NCBI GenBank assembly: GCA_964644965.1
Contig: CAZXYN010000001.1
Coordinates: forward strand, 64,282 to 128,281
DNA from: an uncultured Candidatus Saccharibacteria bacterium
GTDB taxonomy: Bacteria > Patescibacteriota > Saccharimonadia > Saccharimonadales > JACDBH01
Length of the DNA stretch: 64,000 nucleotides
Direction: 5' to 3'
In this document: piece by piece, positions 22,910 through 63,962 of the stretch
Position numbering within the stretch: position 1 is the stretch's first letter
Layout: each line of letters opens with the position of its first letter
Position numbers and translations under genes: made by a program
Notes under the pieces: model-generated
Database searches by the model: none
The model's input: the letters and a program-made list of their open reading frames with translations, nothing else
What the model was told of the DNA's origin: nothing

Positions 22910-24514
22910 ATGGTTCAAGACGCCCGACTTATAGAGGAGCAAAGCACTGCAAGACGTGCCCAGATTTTGGGCTTGCCATATATCAACACTACGCAGTTGC
23001 CGAATCGGCAGCTCTATCTGCAGTTTTTGAGCATACCCGAACTTCGGCAGCATCGAATGATTCCGTTGATTGTTGATCAGCGCAAAGTGACATTTGGCAT
23101 CACTAACAACACTTCTCAGCAGACCATGAAGCAAGTCGAGCAGCGATTTAGTGACTATCAGGTGACATTCGCGCTTGTTTCGGACACTAGCTACAACGAC
23201 TATATGAAGCTGTACGATCCACCCAAGCAAGTCGTCTACGAGGACATACAGCTGAGTGATACCGGTACGGAAGATTTAGTAAGCCGGGTTACTAAGATGC
23301 TGCAAGAAATTAGACCAGACGATACATTAGCTTATCTTGTCGAGCAAGCTCATAACCTAAACGCCAGTGATATTCATATCGAAACCCAAGCCGAAAATGT
23401 GCGTTTCCGCTTCCGTATAGACGGTGTGCTACATCCGATTGCAACAATTGACCACGATCGTTACCGTACGCTGCTTGGCGTAATTGCCAGTGCAGGAAAC
23501 GTTTCTAGCGCCGATCCAGAGGCTCAACAGGGTCACATATCTCAGAATCTCAAGATGGCAGACGATCGTACTGTACGAGTAAATGTACGCCTAGAAACCG
23601 TTCCGACCGTCAATGGTACAGATGTAGTCATGCGGCTATTCAATATGCAACAAGAAAATTACACGCTCGATAGACTTGGACTCAACCCCAAGGAGCGCGC
23701 AGTAGTAGATGATATTATCGCCAAACCTAGTGGACTAGTGCTGGTGGTTGGCCCGACTGGTTCTGGCAAGACAACTACCATGTACTCAATCCTAAATTCG
23801 CTCAATTCAGAAGAACGCAAGATTATAACTATCGAAGACCCTGTAGAGTATCAGTTTGGTGGTATTACTCAAATTCCAGTGGATACCAATGCTGGTGGCA
23901 ACGACGGCAGCTTTGCGGCCAAGTTGCGGGCTGTACTGCGACTTGATCCAGATATAGTGATGGTTGGAGAGATCCGCGACAACGAAACCGCCAAGACGGC
24001 TCTCCAGGCATCGCTGACAGGACACTTGGTTCTCAGTACCTTTCACGCATCATCTGCAGCTGCAGCTTTAGTTCGTATGGAAGAGATTATTGGCCAGAAC
24101 CCGCTGTTCGTATCAGCGATTAGACTTGTCATGGGTCAGAGGCTTGTGCGTAGGTTAGATGACAATCTCAAACAACAGCGTGATCCAACCGAAGCCGAAT
24201 GGCACAAAATCAAATCTGTTGTTGATTCGTTGCCGTCGAATGTCGAAAAACCACATATTGATGGACTAAAGCTCCACGAACCAGGCTCATCACCAGAAAA
24301 CCCATATGGATTTAGCGGTCAAATTGTTCTAAGAGAACAGTTTACTATGACCCCAAGTGTCAGAGAGTTGTTTGAAAAAAATTCCCATATGACAGCGCAG
24401 GCAATAGAAGCCGCTGCTGTCCAGGACGGCATGCTAACGATGGAACAAAACGGCATTATCAAAGTGATTGCCGGCGAAACAACCCTAGACGAAGTTTACC
24501 GTGTAGTAGGTTAA
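22910..24514 (+). CDS. pilB: type IV pilus / type II secretion assembly ATPase (PilB/GspE family)
   Basis: N-terminal T2SSE_N-like region, Walker A GPTGSGKTTT, Asp box and His box (LVLSTFHA). Confidence 0.85.
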   Translation: MVQDARLIEEQSTARRAQILGLPYINTTQLPNRQLYLQFLSIPELRQHRMIPLIVDQRKVTFGITNNTSQQTMKQVEQRFSDYQVTFALVSDTSYNDYMKLYDPPKQVVYEDIQLSDTGTEDLVSRVTKMLQEIRPDDTLAYLVEQAHNLNASDIHIETQAENVRFRFRIDGVLHPIATIDHDRYRTLLGVIASAGNVSSADPEAQQGHISQNLKMADDRTVRVNVRLETVPTVNGTDVVMRLFNMQQENYTLDRLGLNPKERAVVDDIIAKPSGLVLVVGPTGSGKTTTMYSILNSLNSEERKIITIEDPVEYQFGGITQIPVDTNAGGNDGSFAAKLRAVLRLDPDIVMVGEIRDNETAKTALQASLTGHLVLSTFHASSAAAALVRMEEIIGQNPLFVSAIRLVMGQRLVRRLDDNLKQQRDPTEAEWHKIKSVVDSLPSNVEKPHIDGLKLHEPGSSPENPYGFSGQIVLREQFTMTPSVRELFEKNSHMTAQAIEAAAVQDGMLTMEQNGIIKVIAGETTLDEVYRVVG

Positions 24515-24587
24515 AGACCTTACTACTGCGGTTTACCGTGTAGTAGGTTAAAGACCTTACTACTGCGGTTTACCGTGTAGTAGGTTA
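24494..24587 (+). repeat. 37-bp tandem repeat, 2.5 copies, duplicating the last 7 codons and stop of pilB plus a hairpin
   Basis: GTTTACCGTGTAGTAGGTTAAAGACCTTACTACTGCG starts at 24494, 24531 and 24568 (third copy truncated). Each full unit carries the hairpin GTAGTAGG-ttaaaga-CCTTACTAC. Confidence 0.92.
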
Positions 24588-24630
24588 GTACAGCCAAAAG
24601 CCTCAAAAATATTTAAGAATTTTGGTTGTA

Positions 24631-24644
24631 TGACAGAGTAGTAG
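24631..24644. repeat. left arm of a 14-bp perfect inverted repeat flanking the small-ORF cassette
   Basis: TGACAGAGTAGTAG is the exact reverse complement of 25505-25518. Confidence 0.9.
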
Positions 24645-24655
24645 GAGTTGAGCGG

Positions 24656-24707
24656 TGGCGGGGTGAGCGTGCCTTTGCACAAATTTAGCAAAAGCCTCAC
24701 CCCGCCA
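24656..24707. terminator. GC-rich long hairpin between pilB and the convergent small-ORF operon
   Basis: tGGCGGGGTGAG...CTCACCCCGCCa forms a 12-bp outer stem, with an inner GCCTTTGC/GCAAAAGC stem. There is no clear U-tract on either strand. Confidence 0.45.
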
Positions 24708-24712
24708 ATCGC

Positions 24713-24880
24713 TTAAGCGACCCTACTGATCCACCAGCTGTTGCACACTTCGTGCGGGCAACGGAAGAGATCCTTGCTCTTCTCGTTCTTCTTCTGCCAG
24801 AGCTCGGTGATCTTGCCACAGTCGTTGCACTGGTAGGTACCGATGAGCTTCTGGTTGAACTTTATGAACTTTCTGAACAA
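24713..24880 (-). CDS. 55-aa zinc-ribbon protein (C-x2-C ... C-x4-C)
   Basis: TTG start 6 nt after GGAGGA. Sequence is (M)FRKFIKFNQKLIGTYQCNDCGKITELWQKKNEKSKDLFRCPHEVCNSWWISRVA. It is the only plausible part of listed ORF 24713..25174. Confidence 0.5.
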   Translation of the reverse strand: MFRKFIKFNQKLIGTYQCNDCGKITELWQKKNEKSKDLFRCPHEVCNSWWISRVA

Positions 24881-25050
24881 CGAACTTCCTCCGTAGTCGG
24901 TATGATGCTTTTCAGGTATTCGTGAACCCCCATCGCCCCAAGGGCGATGAAAGATACGAACAGAATTACATGACCAGGCTGCCACATGATTGCACGAATG
25001 CTGATCACGATGAGCATCAGTCCAGTTACAGCTTGTGCAGCTCTCTTCAT
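24862..25050 (-). CDS. 62-aa two-helix membrane mini-protein
   Basis: Two hydrophobic segments (GLMLIVISIRAI, VILFVSFIALGAMGV). ATGA overlap with the upstream ORF. Confidence 0.5.
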   Translation of the reverse strand: MKRAAQAVTGLMLIVISIRAIMWQPGHVILFVSFIALGAMGVHEYLKSIIPTTEEVRCSESS

Positions 25051-25256
25051 CGATTTCTCCAGGTGAACGCCAAGTATGCTGCATAGGCAGATCCACCGGT
25101 GCTGAGAAGAAATCCGAGAATGGCTGCGTAGCGGTGGGTACTACTTGGGTACGAGCTGATGATTGCACCTGCACATCGAAATGCTACGGCTATGCCGATA
25201 ATTGCAACCAACATGAACAACGGTTCGATCTGTTTGATCTTCGAGAAGATTTTCAA
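25047..25256 (-). CDS. 69-aa two-helix membrane mini-protein
   Basis: Two hydrophobic segments. TTG start with a TTGA overlap on the upstream stop. Confidence 0.5.
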   Translation of the reverse strand: MKIFSKIKQIEPLFMLVAIIGIAVAFRCAGAIISSYPSSTHRYAAILGFLLSTGGSAYAAYLAFTWRNR

Positions 25257-25435
25257 ACTTTCTTTCCTTCTTGTTGCTTGTTGTACACGTGCACTGCGTT
25301 AAGCAAGATTGATGTAGCCATGCAAAACGCTGCGATGAACAGATAGGCAACTACACGCTGGCCTTTGAGAGCAAGGTAAATGTACTCAAATGCAGCCAAG
25401 GCGTAGCCAATACTAAGTGCAAGCACTTTATTCAT
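25253..25435 (-). CDS. 60-aa two-helix membrane mini-protein (first gene of the cassette operon)
   Basis: ATG preceded by GGGAGAAACC. Two hydrophobic segments. Confidence 0.55.
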   Translation of the reverse strand: MNKVLALSIGYALAAFEYIYLALKGQRVVAYLFIAAFCMATSILLNAVHVYNKQQEGKKV

Positions 25436-25454
25436 GGTTTCTCCCGGGCTGATT

Positions 25455-25504
25455 TTAGCTAGGTAGCAAAAACAAAAATGCTTTCATTTTTGCTACCTAG
25501 CTAA
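25455..25504. promoter_or_regulatory. perfect 18-bp inverted repeat (hairpin with 14-nt loop) just inside the right cassette boundary
   Basis: TTAGCTAGGTAGCAAAAA-14 nt-TTTTTGCTACCTAGCTAA. Lies upstream of the mini-protein operon and downstream of the malic enzyme gene. Confidence 0.6.
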
Positions 25505-25518
25505 CTACTACTCTGTCA
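25505..25518. repeat. right arm of the 14-bp perfect inverted repeat
   Basis: CTACTACTCTGTCA is the exact reverse complement of 24631-24644. Confidence 0.9.
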
Positions 25519-25688
25519 ATGTACAGGGCTTGGAGCAAAGCTCGTACAGAGACCCTATACTTTCATTATATCATACTTGTCAAGTAAAGTCAACCACACA
25601 GTGAGCTTTCGATGCTCCGCCGTAGGCGGACTAGCCTACCCTCACAAGGGGTAGACTGCTCGAAAGTCTACTACGGGGTCAATATCTA

Positions 25689-26936
25689 CTACGCTTCTGC
25701 TTGCTGGTCTGGTTGTGCTGGTAGTATCACGCTAGAAACTGCTTCTACAACCCCAGGGTCAAATGGACCAGGGATTATTTTGTCGGCAGTTGGTTCTGGT
25801 ACCAGAGCAGCCAAAGCTTTGGCGGCAGCTAATTTGTGTTCATCTGTAATCTTGGTGACGCCGTGATCAAGCGCTCCACGGAAAATTCCTGGGAAACCGA
25901 GCGAATTGTTTACTTGGTTAGGGAAATCACTGCGGCCAGTGGCCACTACTGCAGCACCAGCTTGCTTGGCAAGATCAGGTAGAATCTCTGGCTCTGGATT
26001 TGCCATCGCAAATATAATTGGATTATCGGCCATCTTAGTAATCAAATCCTGGGTCAGAAGACCTGCCTTAGATACACCTATGAATACATCGGCGCTAGTT
26101 ATGGCATGCTCTAGTGAACCATTGACGTGGTTTGGGTTGGTGAACACAAGCAATGAACGCTTTTCGTGGTTCAGGTCATCACGGTCTTTGCTCAAGATGC
26201 CCTTGCTGTCCACTACCAATATCTCGGCGTCTGTATAGAGGTCTAGTAGCTTAACGATAGCAGTACCAGCCGCACCAGCACCGACAATTACAATTCTAGA
26301 CTTATCTAGGTCGCGTCCGGTAACTTTGGCGGCGTTAATCAGACCAGCTAGCGTAACGATGGCCGTACCGTGTTGATCGTCGTGCATTACTGGTATGTTG
26401 AGCTCGGCCTTGAGTCTTTCCTCTATCTCAAAACACTTCGGTGCAGCAATGTCTTCTAAGTTTATGCCGCCGAATGACGGTGCAATTGCCTTAATTGTGG
26501 CAATTATTTCCTCTGGTTCGTGTACATCTAATACGATTGGGACGGCGTCAATGCCAGCAAAGTGCTTGAACAGCATGGCTTTGCCTTCCATGACAGGCAT
26601 AGCACCGTATGGTCCGATATCACCGAGTCCTAACACGGCCGAGCCGTCAGAAATGACGGCTACGAGGTTGTTTGTCCATGAGTAGTCTCTGAGCTGCTCG
26701 GGGTGTTCGGCGGTATATTTGGCAACACCACCGACGCCAGGGCTGTAATAGGCAGCCAGCTTCTCCTTAGAATCCACTGTGTCGCGCAGACTCGTGGTGA
26801 TTTTGCCTCTTTTCTCTTTGTGCAATTGCAGCGCGGTCTCGTATATATCCATGCTGTCTATTGTAGCCCTTTTTTTAGGTACGCGATAGGTATCATGGTC
26901 ATTGTTGTAATTTTGAAGAGTTAGTTTGTAGGTCAA
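25689..26936 (-). CDS. NAD(P)-dependent malic enzyme (short, no PTA domain)
   Basis: YSPGVGGV, VISDGSAVLGLGDIGP, NLEDIAAPKCFEIE and VVGAGAAGTA motifs. Confidence 0.9.
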   Translation of the reverse strand: MTYKLTLQNYNNDHDTYRVPKKRATIDSMDIYETALQLHKEKRGKITTSLRDTVDSKEKLAAYYSPGVGGVAKYTAEHPEQLRDYSWTNNLVAVISDGSAVLGLGDIGPYGAMPVMEGKAMLFKHFAGIDAVPIVLDVHEPEEIIATIKAIAPSFGGINLEDIAAPKCFEIEERLKAELNIPVMHDDQHGTAIVTLAGLINAAKVTGRDLDKSRIVIVGAGAAGTAIVKLLDLYTDAEILVVDSKGILSKDRDDLNHEKRSLLVFTNPNHVNGSLEHAITSADVFIGVSKAGLLTQDLITKMADNPIIFAMANPEPEILPDLAKQAGAAVVATGRSDFPNQVNNSLGFPGIFRGALDHGVTKITDEHKLAAAKALAALVPEPTADKIIPGPFDPGVVEAVSSVILPAQPDQQAEA

Positions 26937-26992: not shown

Positions 26993-27208
26993 ATGAGTGC
27001 ACAAAGGTTGTTTGAGGTGGGTCCAGCCCGACATGAGGAGGCTTCGTCTTTAGGTGAGATGCTCATCAAGTTGAGCCAAATGACTGATGATGAGGTTATT
27101 TCTGTCGGTGACCAGATGTTTGACGATGAGTTTAGGGGTCTTGAAGTTCCTGAAGAAACGCTACGGGTTATAGATGAAGAGCTTACAAAAAGAAAATATA
27201 TAAGTTAA
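26993..27208 (+). CDS. small acidic hypothetical protein
   Basis: 71 aa, Asp/Glu-rich, upstream of rplS. Confidence 0.4.
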   Translation: MSAQRLFEVGPARHEEASSLGEMLIKLSQMTDDEVISVGDQMFDDEFRGLEVPEETLRVIDEELTKRKYIS

Positions 27209-27265: not shown

Positions 27266-27787
27266 ATGGAATCAGCAATCAAATCTCTTAAGGCAGCACA
27301 GGCCAAACACCAGGTCGTCGACATACGTTCAGGCGACACTGTTCGTGTGCACCAAAAAATCAAAGAAGGCAGCAAAGAACGTATCCAGGTGTTTGAAGGT
27401 CTGGTTATCCGAACTGACCGCAAAGGCTCTCATACCAGTAGTATCACTGTCCGTCGTATCTCTAGCGGTATTGGTGTAGAGAAGACCTATCTTATGCATT
27501 CCCCACTAGTCGTTAAAGTAGAAGTTACCAAGCGTTCAAAAGTACGCCGCAACTACCTCAGTTACATGCGCGATCGTCGCGGTAAGTCAGCTAGACTTAC
27601 TGGTATGGCATTTGATAAAGATGCTGTAAATACTATTGGTGAAGATCCAGCTATAGCTGAGGCAGAAGCTGCTCTGAAAGCTCAAGCAGAAGCAGAGCAC
27701 AAAGCCGCCGAAGCAGAAAAGGCCAAGCAAGAAGCAGAGACAGAGGCTAAAGTAGCTGAAGCTGTCGCTTCCCACGAAGACAAATAG
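27266..27787 (+). CDS. rplS: 50S ribosomal protein L19 with an Ala/Glu/Lys-rich C-terminal extension of about 58 aa
   Basis: SGDTVRVHQKIKEGSKERIQVFEGLVI...RRISSGIGVEKTY...RRNYLSYMRDRRGKSARL core, then AEAEAALKAQAEAEHKAAEAEKAKQEAETEAK. Confidence 0.92.
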   Translation: MESAIKSLKAAQAKHQVVDIRSGDTVRVHQKIKEGSKERIQVFEGLVIRTDRKGSHTSSITVRRISSGIGVEKTYLMHSPLVVKVEVTKRSKVRRNYLSYMRDRRGKSARLTGMAFDKDAVNTIGEDPAIAEAEAALKAQAEAEHKAAEAEKAKQEAETEAKVAEAVASHEDK

Positions 27788-63610: not shown

Positions 63611-63705
63611 CTGGGAGGACTGGTCTAGTTTAGTTATTGTCCCGAGGACTGTTTGAGAACGTTTAGTTTGAGTTCCGCAGGGACAAATTAGACCAGTCCT
63701 CCCAG
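63611..63705 (+). other. 95-nt hairpin with a 21-bp stem (MITE-like or RNA element) in the presumed rpsL leader
   Basis: CTGGGAGGACTGGTCTAGTTT pairs with AAATTAGACCAGTCCTCCCAG. The single G-T pair is tolerated only as plus-strand RNA. Inner stem GTCCC/GGGAC. Confidence 0.6.
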
Positions 63706-63962
63706 GGTAGTATTGTTGTTTCATCTGCCGGTCGCGTCTTTTGCATACTTTTCTGCCGAATCAGAAAAGTATGGATTTGCTTCTTCATCAGAAGAAGGTG
63801 TCTTTTGTCGGCACAAAAGAAGGAATTTGGTTCTTTATTGGAAGAACTTGGCTTGCAACAGATGGCCGTATCTGTTAAAATACCAACTGGCATAAACGAG
63901 TTTAATAAATAGCAATCTCCGGGACTCTCTGTTTCCGGCGACAATATCCAAAGGAGGATGCA

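What the first reader, a model, noticed from the sequence alone, without database searches (positions are those of the whole stretch)
24631..25518. 888-bp cassette flanked by 14-bp perfect inverted repeats encodes three coupled 2-TM mini-proteins plus a zinc-ribbon protein
TGACAGAGTAGTAG (24631-24644) and its exact reverse complement (25505-25518) bracket a minus-strand four-gene operon. The ORFs are 60, 69 and 62 aa, each with two hydrophobic helices, joined by TTGA and ATGA start/stop overlaps. A 55-aa C-x2-C...C-x4-C zinc-ribbon ORF follows; it is missing from the ORF track as such and uses a TTG start after GGAGGA. The first ORF has a GGGAG Shine-Dalgarno. An 18-bp perfect hairpin lies just inside the right boundary and a GC-rich long hairpin just inside the left boundary. 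The cassette sits between the housekeeping genes pilB and malic enzyme, next to a tandemly repeated pilB 3' end. The gene set is reminiscent of holin/antiholin or small membrane toxin modules. I recognise no family, so function is open.
Basis: partly seen in the sequence, partly recalled or inferred. Interest (0 to 1): 0.62.

Follow-up and report, generated by a model that had tools for sequence, protein, structure and literature searches.

The report
Orphan small-membrane-protein operon beside pilB
A Saccharibacteria strain carries a 1.2-kb insert between pilB and the malic enzyme gene, holding a self-contained operon for three tiny membrane proteins and probably a zinc-ribbon peptide that match nothing known; it is a real but fairly ordinary strain-specific accessory insert, not a demonstrable mobile element.

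Summary

The organism is a Saccharimonadales (Saccharibacteria) bacterium. Its closest relatives (PilB 76-84% identical) have only about 20-65 bp between pilB and the malic enzyme gene. The window's 1,174-bp interval is therefore a lineage-specific insert. It sits in a slot that holds unrelated accessory genes in many other relatives.

The unit has its own near-consensus promoter, which lies outside the right IR arm, plus a structured leader and a strong terminator hairpin.

- **No homologues.** None of the four peptides has a relative in any protein, phage, plasmid, defence-system or PDB resource searched. Only the zinc-ribbon peptide (ZnR) gives a sub-threshold match, to the FmdB zinc-ribbon family.
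- **The IR.** It is not significant on its own. It looks like a split copy of the hairpin that pilB's 3' end forms in relatives, not like transposon ends.
- **Caveat.** The ZnR ORF has aberrant codon composition (GC3 0.82), and its antisense frame looks more host-like.

Function is unknown. My best guess is a hetero-oligomeric small membrane complex, toxin-like, holin-like or protective. Interest is modest.

The parts
22910..24514 (+). pilB (type IV pilus assembly ATPase). It is the left housekeeping neighbour, and its last codons, GTA GTA GGT TAA, form the 5' arm of a hairpin.
   Evidence: ORF. Pfam T2SSE on the identical product. 60-84% identical orthologues in 160 Saccharibacteria loci. Hairpin fold.
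24494..24587 (+). Perfect 37-bp tandem repeat, 2.5 copies. Each unit is pilB's last 20 nt plus the 3' arm of its terminator hairpin.
   Evidence: 100% matches, score 188. All short-read (Logan) contigs break here.
24590..24629 (.). AT-rich hairpin between the tandem repeat and the left IR arm.
   Evidence: Fold.
24631..24644 (+). Left arm of the 14-bp perfect IR. With its flanks it reads TAT GAC AGA GTA GTA GGA and resembles a pilB 3' end (Y-D-R-V-V-G). It also forms the outer 3' stem of the operon's terminator structure.
   Evidence: Comparison with the L004 and L006 pilB ends. Fold.
24656..24707 (-). Strong GC-rich hairpin 5 nt after the ZnR stop codon, presumed to be the terminator of the operon. 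It has no T-run.
   Evidence: 12-bp perfect stem. (-60.7 kcal/mol for the 141-nt region, z -7.7).
24713..24880 (-). ZnR: a probable 55-aa zinc-ribbon peptide (YQCNDCG...FRCPHEVC). TTG start 6 nt after GGAGGA, overlapping tm3 by 19 nt.
   Evidence: Zn_ribbon_8 E=2.7e-5 and TIGR02605 (FmdB) E=6.6e-5, both below curated cut-offs. AlphaFold2 beta-hairpins, pLDDT 70. Caveat: GC3 is 0.82 and the antisense frame scores better.
24752..24925 (+). Antisense 57-aa ORF (GTG start) whose codon-position composition is host-like. It is either a shadow ORF or an alternative to ZnR.
   Evidence: It has no SD, no promoter, no Pfam hit and no database record.
24862..25050 (-). tm3: a 62-aa peptide with two hydrophobic helices and an acidic C-terminal tail. 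ATG start in an ATGA overlap, with GGAG 6 nt upstream.
   Evidence: Annotated as a protein in NCBI and Logan, singleton cluster. Codon score 0.148, best of six frames.
25047..25256 (-). tm2: a 69-aa helical-hairpin peptide. TTG start in a TTGA overlap, with AAGGAAAG upstream. It is not called by gene finders.
   Evidence: AlphaFold2 pLDDT 80.7, helices 3-35 and 39-67. Exhaustive phmmer against 1.84 billion representatives gave only a spurious repeat-protein hit. Codon score 0.041, best of six frames.
25253..25435 (-). tm1: a 60-aa peptide with two hydrophobic helices and a basic C-terminal tail. ATG start with GGGAG upstream.
   Evidence: Found only as itself among 5.8 billion clusters. Codon score 0.198.
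25455..25504 (-). Hairpin in the 5' UTR with an 18-bp perfect stem (23 bp at 91%), ending 19 nt upstream of the tm1 start codon.
   Evidence: leader z -5.5. No credible Rfam family.
25505..25518 (-). Right arm of the 14-bp IR. It lies inside the 5' UTR of the operon.
25565..25593 (-). Near-consensus sigma-70 promoter: TTGACT, 17-nt spacer, TG-n-TATAAT (11 of 12 matches, extended -10). It lies outside the IR-bounded segment.
   Evidence: The same 40 nt resemble intergenic promoter regions of Listeria A511-like phages, which I read as resemblance between strong consensus promoters.
25595..25685 (-). Branched stem-loop structure immediately downstream of the malic enzyme stop codon. It is a presumed terminator or insulator between malic enzyme and the operon promoter and contains one CTACTAC motif.
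   Evidence: -44.6 kcal/mol, z -3.7. No Rfam match.
25689..26936 (-). NAD(P)-dependent malic enzyme, the right housekeeping neighbour. It is co-directional with the operon. Its double stop (G TAG TAG) is a CTACTAC motif complementary to pilB's GTAGTAG.
   Evidence: Pfam malic and Malic_M on the product..

Best explanation
**What it is.** This is a lineage-specific accessory transcription unit of about 1.0 kb inside a 1,174-bp insert (24515-25688). The insert lies where pilB and the malic enzyme gene converge in a Saccharimonadales genome. In this order that slot is a general hotspot for unrelated accessory genes.

**Layout (shown).**
- A near-consensus promoter at 25593-25565.
- A leader of about 120 nt with two stable hairpins.
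- Four translationally coupled small ORFs.
- A strong terminator hairpin at 24656-24707.
- The products are three orphan helical-hairpin membrane peptides (60, 69 and 62 aa) and, probably, a 55-aa FmdB-like zinc-ribbon peptide.

**The inverted repeat (IR).** It is real, but it is best read as a split or duplicated copy of the hairpin that pilB's 3' end forms with the sequence just after its stop codon in close relatives. The whole insert lies between pilB's GTAGTAG and the malic enzyme's CTACTAC stop region. The IR arms are not transposon ends.

**How it works (inferred, not shown).**
- The strong promoter and the start/stop overlaps would deliver the three peptides in similar amounts.
- They would insert into the membrane as a hetero-oligomer. 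Consistent with this, there are charged residues inside hydrophobic helices (tm1 E17, tm2 R27, tm3 R19) and small-residue packing motifs.
- They would act on membrane integrity or transport, as a small toxin, holin-like or protective module, with the cytosolic zinc-ribbon peptide as partner or regulator.
- The DNA was most likely acquired by recombination. Saccharibacteria are naturally competent.
For: **Insert and hotspot**
- The trmH-pilB-(malic)-rplS gene order is conserved in 80 genome loci. The closest relatives, L004, L006 and L005, have about 20-65 bp between pilB and malic.
- 59 relatives carry other, unrelated genes at the same junction.
- The four peptides are absent from 165 related loci totalling 1.5 Mb.
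- An identical copy occurs only in three Logan contigs, from runs SRR16797979, SRR16797988 and SRR16798008.

**Transcription unit**
- Promoter matching 11 of 12 consensus positions with an extended -10.
- Structured leader, z -5.5, and terminator region, z -7.7.

**Coding**
- 4 of 4 ORFs have an SD motif against a 7.9% background.
- TTGA, ATGA and 19-nt overlaps tile 99.6% of the 723 bp. Only 1.2% of shuffles reach 95%.
- tm1-3 are the best of six frames. Their codon scores (0.04-0.20) lie well above the 95th percentile of off-frame scores, -0.18.
- tm1 and tm3 are already annotated proteins in NCBI.
- The tm2 model is a helical hairpin, pLDDT 80.7.
- ZnR matches Zn_ribbon_8 and TIGR02605 at about 1e-5, and its model shows beta-hairpins.

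**IR as a split hairpin**
- In L006 the pilB 3' end forms a 14-bp stem across its stop codon, followed by a T-run. The window's own pilB end forms a comparable stem and L004 a weaker one (z -0.29).
- The left IR arm, TAT-GAC-AGAGTAGTAGGA, shares AGAGTAGT and GGA with L004's pilB end and covers the same codons as the L006 stem.
- GTAGTAG occurs 19 times in the window against 5.5 expected. Seven copies lie in 24503-25692, four on the + strand at the left and three on the - strand at the right.
- In L004 the malic stop codon lies inside the AACTACT arm, 17 nt from the pilB stop.

**Competence**
- Review PMC12857230 reports natural competence through type IV pili and ComEC.
Against: - No sequence variation is available. 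All copies are identical, so there is no evolutionary test (dN/dS) of coding.
- tm2 and ZnR are not called by gene finders.
- ZnR has GC1/2/3 of 0.34/0.34/0.82. Host 55-codon chunks average 0.58/0.38/0.44 with a maximum GC3 of 0.655. Its antisense frame scores 0.411, a value never reached by the antisense of 517 host gene chunks.
- The split-hairpin reading rests on short similarities of 8-14 nt to two relatives. It is not seen at the other insertions in this slot.
- It does not explain why 116 bp (the tandem repeat plus the AT-rich hairpin) separate the true pilB end from the left IR arm. It also does not explain why the two arms are still perfectly complementary.
- The functional part has no direct evidence: no homologue, no partner enzyme and no expression data.
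Confidence: 0.55

Rival explanations
1. The 888-bp segment is a non-autonomous mobile cassette, like a MITE (miniature inverted-repeat transposable element). Its ends are the 14-bp terminal inverted repeats, and a transposase encoded elsewhere moves it.
For: - Perfect 14-bp IR with TG...CA termini.
- A hairpin just inside each end.
- The 5-bp flanks TTGTA and ATGTA match at 4 of 5 positions.
- Present only in this lineage.
Against: - There is a single copy in the 64-kb window. No copy was found in 165 related loci or in viral contigs.
- No transposase lies nearby.
- The promoter lies outside the right IR arm.
- The insert relative to relatives is 1,174 bp, not 888 bp.
- An IR of this length is expected by chance in about 22% of windows.
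- The left arm resembles the adjacent gene's 3' end.
- The flank match is imperfect.
Confidence: 0.13
2. It is a remnant of a prophage lysis or superinfection-exclusion module, with a holin, an antiholin or small exclusion proteins.
For: - Small two-TM peptides, two of them with charged tails.
- A weak PHROG holin match for tm2, E=0.15.
- A moron-like layout: its own promoter and its own terminator.
Against: - No significant PHROG hit.
- No tblastn or blastn match in 50,697 phage records apart from a 40-nt promoter-like stretch.
- No match in IMG/VR.
- No endolysin, integrase or other phage gene in the neighbourhood.
- No PADLOC match.
Confidence: 0.1
3. The fourth gene is not the zinc ribbon. 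Either the + strand ORF 24752-24925 is the real gene, or this stretch is a non-coding 3' UTR. The operon then encodes only the three membrane peptides.
For: - ZnR GC3 is 0.82, while no host 55-codon chunk exceeds 0.655. Its GC1 is 0.34.
- Its codon score is -0.044, while the antisense frame scores 0.411. That pattern occurs in 0 of 517 host gene chunks.
- ZnR is not annotated in any source.
- Cys codons are the antisense of Ala and Thr codons, so Cys-x2-Cys spacings can arise as a shadow of a helical Ala-rich frame (inference).
Against: - The match to two zinc-ribbon profiles at about 1e-5 includes non-Cys signature positions: Y-x-C-x-x-C-G ... C-P.
- GGAGGA lies 6 nt before the TTG start.
- The terminator follows 5 nt after the ZnR stop.
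- The single-sequence AlphaFold2 model gives zinc-ribbon-like hairpins at pLDDT 70.
- The + ORF has no SD, no promoter, no Pfam hit and no record in the collection. It would overlap tm3 antisense by 64 nt.
Confidence: 0.2
4. The peptides are secreted or host-directed membrane-active peptides, like a leaderless multi-peptide bacteriocin. An episymbiotic Saccharibacterium would use them against competitors or its host.
For: - Three co-expressed small cationic or hydrophobic peptides with net charge +4, +6 and +1.
- A strong promoter.
- The episymbiotic lifestyle of the group.
Against: - Each peptide has roughly 20-residue hydrophobic segments typical of integral membrane proteins, not amphipathic bacteriocins.
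- There is no exporter or immunity gene nearby.
- No family match. The only bacteriocin-family hit, NCBIfam geobacillin-26, has E=0.49.
Confidence: 0.05

Closest known systems
Phage 'morons' and strain-specific accessory units at intergenic hotspots (self-contained promoter-gene-terminator inserts)
   Same: - It has its own strong promoter and its own terminator.
- It lies between two conserved genes in a slot that holds different cargo in different lineages.
   Different: - It sits in a bacterial chromosome with no prophage context.
- The cargo is four coupled mini-ORFs with no homologues.
Class II holins / pinholins (for example phage 21 S68), named from memory as a lead and not tested as a family
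   Same: - Size of 60-70 aa.
- Two transmembrane helices.
- Charged termini.
- Tight coupling with neighbouring small genes.
   Different: - No significant holin profile match; the best has E=0.15.
- No endolysin.
- No close dual-start motif.
- No phage genes nearby.
FmdB-family zinc ribbon (Pfam PF09723 Zn_ribbon_8; NCBIfam TIGR02605 CxxC_CxxC_SSSS)
   Same: - The Y-x-C-x-x-C-G ... C-P ... C signature.
- Size of about 55 aa.
- E-values of 2.7e-5 and 6.6e-5.
   Different: - Scores of 24.5 and 22.9 bits fall below the curated cut-offs of 34.4 and 31.3.
- The second knuckle is C-x4-C, not C-x2-C.
- The best fold matches are generic zinc subdomains at E>1.
MITEs and IS-derived elements bounded by terminal inverted repeats
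   Same: - Perfect 14-bp IR with TG...CA ends.
- About 0.9 kb long.
- No transposase inside.
   Different: - A single copy.
- No clean target-site duplication.
- It carries coding cargo whose promoter lies outside the repeat.
- One arm resembles the flanking gene's own 3' end.
Shared hairpin terminators between convergent genes
   Same: - In L006, L004 and the window itself, pilB's last codons form the 5' arm of a hairpin across the stop codon.
- In L004 the 3' arm overlaps the malic stop codon.
   Different: - The complementary motifs occur in seven copies here.
- The innermost pair is 860 nt apart, with genes in between.

Membership tests
TIR-bounded transposable element (IS/MITE) | Terminal inverted repeats at both ends | tested here: met
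   14 of 14 nt are complementary. Such a repeat is, however, expected by chance in about 22% of windows.
TIR-bounded transposable element (IS/MITE) | Direct target-site duplication flanking the repeats | tested here: inconclusive
   The flanks are TTGTA and ATGTA, matching at 4 of 5 positions. There is no perfect duplication of 2-9 bp.
TIR-bounded transposable element (IS/MITE) | Multiple copies, or a cognate transposase, in the genome | tested here: not met
   No other copy in the 64-kb window, in 165 related loci or in viral contigs. No transposase ORF nearby. Only 64 kb of this genome could be examined.
Holin (phage lysis protein) | Small protein with at least one transmembrane helix and a charged C-terminus | tested here: met
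   tm1 has a basic tail, tm3 an acidic tail and tm2 a short RNR tail.
Holin (phage lysis protein) | Significant match to a holin family profile | tested here: not met
   The best PHROG holin match is E=0.15 for tm2. There are no Pfam or NCBIfam matches.
Holin (phage lysis protein) | Adjacent endolysin or lysis cassette in a phage or prophage context | tested here: not met
   The neighbours are pilB, malic enzyme, L19 and RNase HII. No phage similarity.
FmdB-family zinc ribbon (PF09723 / TIGR02605) | Profile score at or above the curated cut-off | tested here: not met
   24.5 bits against 34.4, and 22.9 bits against 31.3. The E-values of 2.7e-5 and 6.6e-5 are still significant for a single query.
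FmdB-family zinc ribbon (PF09723 / TIGR02605) | Four Cys in two knuckles on beta-hairpins | tested here: met
   C18-x2-C21 ... C41-x4-C46. The AlphaFold2 model has strands at 10-18, 24-30 and 51-54.
Anti-phage defence systems (PADLOC models) | Match to any defence-system protein model | tested here: not met
   No match for tm1-3. ZnR gives only E=0.02-0.04 to a Cas3 zinc region.
Integron gene cassette | attC recombination site and an integron integrase nearby | tested here: not met
   No R''/R' core motifs were seen by eye in either hairpin. No integrase among the neighbouring genes. No dedicated attC model was run.
Type IV secretion pilin / VirB3-like small two-TM proteins | Profile match, or location next to virB4 | tested here: not met
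   No Pfam hit at E<=10. No T4SS gene is adjacent. The resemblance is only in size and topology.

The most novel reading that the evidence does not exclude
The unit could be a transposase-less cassette that enters the loop of a convergent-gene terminator hairpin. It would use the GTAGTAG/CTACTAC stem as its recombination site, or arrive by natural transformation. Its cargo would be a three-subunit membrane pore or toxin with a zinc-ribbon partner, which an episymbiotic Saccharibacterium uses against phages, competitors or its actinobacterial host. The perfectly complementary 5' and 3' ends of the mRNA might also close the transcript into a protective panhandle.
Probability: 0.07. Interest if true: 0.65.

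Novelty: new member of a known kind. Interest (0 to 1): 0.3.

Why it matters
**If the peptides are made**
- They add three new families of very small membrane proteins, and perhaps a zinc-ribbon partner, to the unexplored small-protein content of CPR (candidate phyla radiation) bacteria. These genomes are tiny, and their accessory genes are likely to bear on host or phage interactions.

**The locus as an example**
- It shows how accessory DNA lodges between convergent housekeeping genes at a shared terminator hairpin.
- It shows that a striking perfect inverted repeat around a gene set need not mark a mobile element.

**Annotation lessons**
- Two of the four ORFs are missed by standard gene callers.
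- One of them, ZnR, has a codon pattern that warns against accepting motif-bearing mini-ORFs without expression evidence.

Tried and rejected
**Homology searches that found nothing**
- A concatenated four-peptide query against the 5.8-billion-cluster protein index returned nothing, not even itself, so I treat it as uninformative.
- Single queries: tm1 found only itself. ZnR had no word-sharing candidates.
- An exhaustive phmmer search of tm2 against 1.84 billion representatives gave one hit. It is a 2,070-aa serine- and proline-rich repeat protein matched through a short repeated motif, which I rejected as spurious.
- Pfam, PHROGs, NCBIfam and PADLOC gave nothing significant for tm1-3.
- PDB sequence searches gave nothing below E=0.09.
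- A Foldseek search of the ZnR model returned only generic zinc subdomains at E>1.
- Nothing was found in phage records by DNA or protein search, in plasmid records by DNA search, or in IMG/VR or JGI metagenomes.
- A second metagenome scan with PilB found no relative closer than 68%, so no intermediate state of the locus is available.

**Other tests**
- The three TM peptides are not detectably paralogous.
- They are unlikely to be pieces of one frameshifted larger membrane protein gene, because tm1 and tm2 searched alone found no longer homologue. tm3 was not searched alone.
- Rfam gave only sub-threshold chance matches on the hairpins.
- I tested whether split pilB hairpins flank the other insertions in this slot. 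They do not.
- My scan for arrays of small two-TM ORFs in relatives used thresholds too strict to recover even the window's own cassette, so I abandoned it.
- Looking up the environment of the source runs in the literature failed.
Full report
**1. The observation**

- TGACAGAGTAGTAG lies at 24631-24644 and its exact reverse complement at 25505-25518. They are the only two copies in the window.
- Four minus-strand ORFs tile 24713-25435: tm1 25253-25435 (60 aa), tm2 25047-25256 (69 aa, TTG), tm3 24862-25050 (62 aa) and a 55-aa Cys-x2-Cys...Cys-x4-Cys zinc-ribbon ORF (ZnR) at 24713-24880. ZnR starts at a TTG 6 nt after GGAGGA and is hidden inside a 153-aa ORF in the mechanical list.
- I verified the TTGA and ATGA overlaps base by base.
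- The right hairpin has an 18-bp perfect stem, extendable to 23 bp at 91%. The left hairpin has a 12-bp GC-rich outer stem plus an inner stem.
- pilB's last 20 nt plus a hairpin arm are repeated 2.5 times as a perfect 37-bp unit.
- A perfect inverted repeat (IR) of at least 14 nt spaced 60-1500 nt is expected 0.43 times per 64-kb window. 22% of random windows have one, and this window has a second near 63611. The IR is therefore not significant on its own.

**2. Organism and context**

PilB orthologues place the window in Saccharimonadales (Saccharibacteria, CPR). The best matches are 84% identical.
- The order trmH-pilB-(malic enzyme)-rplS is conserved across 80 genome loci.
- In the three closest relatives (L004, L006, L005) pilB and the malic enzyme gene converge with only about 20-65 bp between them. 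In L004 the two stop codons are 17 nt apart.
- The window has 1,174 bp there (24515-25688), so the interval is a lineage-specific insert.
- The slot is a general hotspot. Fifty-nine relatives carry other, unrelated genes after pilB: WhiB-like proteins, a recurrent roughly 150-aa protein and others.
- None of the 165 related loci (1.5 Mb) encodes anything like the four peptides.
- The only other copies are three short-read contigs from runs SRR16797979, SRR16797988 and SRR16798008. They are 100% identical over 1,132 bp and, like the pilB contigs, break inside the 37-bp repeat.

**3. The unit is larger than the IR-bounded piece**

A near-consensus sigma-70 promoter sits on the minus strand at 25593-25565: TTGACT, a 17-nt spacer, then TG-n-TATAAT (11 of 12 matches).
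- This is outside the right IR arm. That arm, the 18/23-bp hairpin and a further stem near the 5' end all belong to a leader of about 120 nt (z -5.5).
- The only phage similarity to the region is this 40-nt promoter, which matches Listeria A511-like phage intergenic regions. I read that as resemblance between strong consensus promoters.
- Five nt after the ZnR stop codon comes the GC-rich hairpin. An outer stem pairs the end of the ZnR ORF with the left IR arm (z -7.7).
- A branched structure (25595-25685, z -3.7) separates the malic enzyme stop from the promoter.
- Rfam recognises none of these structures.
- The functional unit is therefore promoter-leader-four ORFs-terminator, co-directional with the malic enzyme gene and convergent with pilB.

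**4. Are the ORFs genes?**

For:
- All four starts have GGAG or AAGG 5-9 nt upstream, against 7.9% of all start codons in the window. That gives about 4e-5 for four of four.
- The ORFs tile 99.6% of 723 bp. Only 1.2% of shuffles reach 95%.
- For tm1-3 the proposed frame is the best of six. Codon scores are 0.198, 0.041 and 0.148. Host gene chunks score 0.355 ± 0.14, and the 95th percentile of off-frame scores is -0.18.
- tm1 and tm3 are already predicted proteins in NCBI and Logan.
- AlphaFold2 models tm2 from its sequence alone as a helical hairpin (pLDDT 80.7).
- ZnR matches Zn_ribbon_8 (E=2.7e-5) and the FmdB model TIGR02605 (E=6.6e-5), including the Y-x-C-x-x-C-G and C-P positions. Both scores are below the curated cut-offs. 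Its model shows beta-hairpins at pLDDT 70.

Against:
- No sequence variation exists to test selection.
- ZnR has GC1/2/3 of 0.34/0.34/0.82. None of 273 host 55-codon chunks exceeds a GC3 of 0.655.
- The codon-aligned antisense frame, which contains the + ORF 24752-24925, scores 0.411. The antisense of 517 host gene chunks never reaches that value; the maximum is 0.227.
- That + ORF has no SD, no promoter, no family match and no database record.

I put ZnR at roughly 0.7 real and tm1-3 at roughly 0.85.

**5. Identity of the proteins**

All four are orphans.
- tm1 finds only itself among 5.8 billion clusters.
- An exhaustive search of 1.84 billion representatives with tm2 gives only a spurious repeat-protein hit.
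- ZnR shares no words with any candidate.
- Nothing significant came from PHROGs, NCBIfam, PADLOC, PDB sequences, phage or plasmid records, IMG/VR or JGI metagenomes.
- The three TM peptides are not detectably paralogous.
- The best fold matches of ZnR are generic zinc subdomains (MCM N-terminal domain, rubrerythrin) at E>1.

**6. What the inverted repeat is**

In close relatives pilB's last codons form the 5' arm of a hairpin that spans its stop codon.
- In L006 this is a 14-bp stem followed by CTTTTTG.
- The window's own pilB end (GTAGTAGG...CCTTACTAC) forms a comparable stem.
- L004 forms a weaker one, whose fold is no better than shuffles (z -0.29).
- In L004 the 3' arm overlaps the malic stop codon. 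In the window the malic double stop (G TAG TAG) is a CTACTAC complementary to pilB's GTAGTAG.
- The left IR arm with its flanks (TAT GAC AGA GTA GTA GGA) reads like a pilB 3' end. It shares AGAGTAGT and GGA with L004 and covers the same Tyr-Arg-Val-Val codons as the L006 stem.
- GTAGTAG occurs 19 times in the window against 5.5 expected. Seven copies lie in 24503-25692, four on the + strand at the left and three on the - strand at the right.

The simplest reading is that the insert lies in what used to be the loop of the shared pilB/malic terminator hairpin. On this reading the 14-bp IR is the innermost, duplicated pair of hairpin arms.

This is an inference from short similarities, and it has gaps:
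- It does not recur at the other insertions in this slot.
- It does not explain the 116 bp between the true pilB end and the left arm.
- It does not explain why the arms remain perfectly complementary.

The transposon reading keeps some support: TG...CA ends and flanks TTGTA/ATGTA matching at 4 of 5 positions. It fails on copy number, on a transposase and on the position of the promoter. Natural competence of Saccharibacteria through type IV pili and ComEC (review PMC12857230) makes acquisition by recombination plausible.

**7. Mechanism**

Shown:
- A self-contained, strongly promoted, tightly coupled four-ORF unit that encodes three hydrophobic helical-hairpin peptides and a probable zinc-ribbon peptide.

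Inferred:
- Coupling gives similar amounts of the three peptides.
- Charged residues inside hydrophobic helices (tm1 E17, tm2 R27, tm3 R19) and Gly/Ala/Ser-rich helix faces suggest a hetero-oligomeric membrane complex.
- The most likely role is a membrane-acting accessory function: a small toxin, a holin-like protein, or exclusion or immunity. The zinc ribbon would be a cytosolic partner or regulator.
- Nothing tested here distinguishes these roles. A classical phage lysis cassette is disfavoured by the lack of an endolysin and of any phage signal.

**8. Comparison and verdict**

The unit works like a moron-type accessory insert at a hotspot. Its proteins resemble class II holins and FmdB zinc ribbons only in size, topology and motif, and formal membership tests fail or fall below threshold.

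The finding is real, but it is a fairly ordinary strain-specific orphan operon. The attractive "IR-flanked cassette" framing is not supported as a mobile element. Interest is 0.3. I classify it as a new member of a known kind: an orphan accessory small-membrane-protein operon.

Noticed in passing
window 24494-24587: There is a perfect 37-bp tandem repeat of 2.5 copies. Each unit is pilB's last 20 nt plus the 3' arm of its terminator hairpin. Every short-read contig carrying pilB or the cassette ends inside it, so it breaks k-mer assemblies. Its copy number may vary within the population.
   Followed up: partly
window 24503-25692: The 7-mer GTAGTAG is enriched, with 19 copies in the window against 5.5 expected. 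Seven copies lie in this 1.2 kb with strict polarity: four on the + strand at the left and three on the - strand at the right. They include pilB's Val-Val-Gly codons and the malic enzyme's double stop, TAG TAG.
   Followed up: partly
window 24713-24880 (minus) and 24752-24925 (plus): The zinc-ribbon ORF uses almost only C- or G-ending codons (GC3 0.82; AAG 8 to AAA 0; NNC 19 to NNT 3) in a genome with GC3 of 0.44. Its first and second codon positions are AT-rich. The antisense frame looks host-like. No explanation fits well: neither foreign origin, nor a shadow ORF, nor overprinting.
   Followed up: partly
window 26993-27208 (+): A second orphan small ORF (71 aa, acidic, no SD) lies between the malic enzyme gene and rplS. 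It is annotated in NCBI and Logan as a singleton. It was not detected in any of the 162 loci fetched from other genomes, and in L004 the malic and rplS matches lie about 77 bp apart.
   Followed up: partly
window 25555-25594 (minus): The operon promoter region is 87.5% identical over 40 nt to unannotated intergenic stretches of 37 Listeria A511-like phage genomes. This is probably convergence on a strong sigma-70 consensus.
   Followed up: no
L019, L036, L043, L054, L055, L058, L065, L067, L071 (downstream of pilB): Many Saccharimonadales carry a WhiB-like four-Cys gene with the G-[VI]-W-G-G motif in the same pilB-downstream slot. Others (L010, L018, L020, L040) carry a recurrent roughly 150-aa minus-strand protein. 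The slot is a recurrent accessory-gene site.
   Followed up: partly
window 25595-25685 (minus): A branched stem-loop structure of about 90 nt lies directly after the malic enzyme stop codon (-44.6 kcal/mol, z -3.7). It has no Rfam match and is absent from the short intergenic regions of the closest relatives.
   Followed up: partly
window 63611-63708: This is the only other perfect IR of at least 14 nt with 60-1500 nt spacing in the window. Its arms are about 17 nt, in an AT-rich stretch next to a 12-bp tandem repeat.
   Followed up: no
window 27266-27787 (+): Ribosomal protein L19 (rplS) is 173 aa long, with an Ala/Glu/Lys-rich C-terminal extension. Some relatives share the extension (matches run to residue about 171) and others lack it (matches stop near residue 124).
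   Followed up: no
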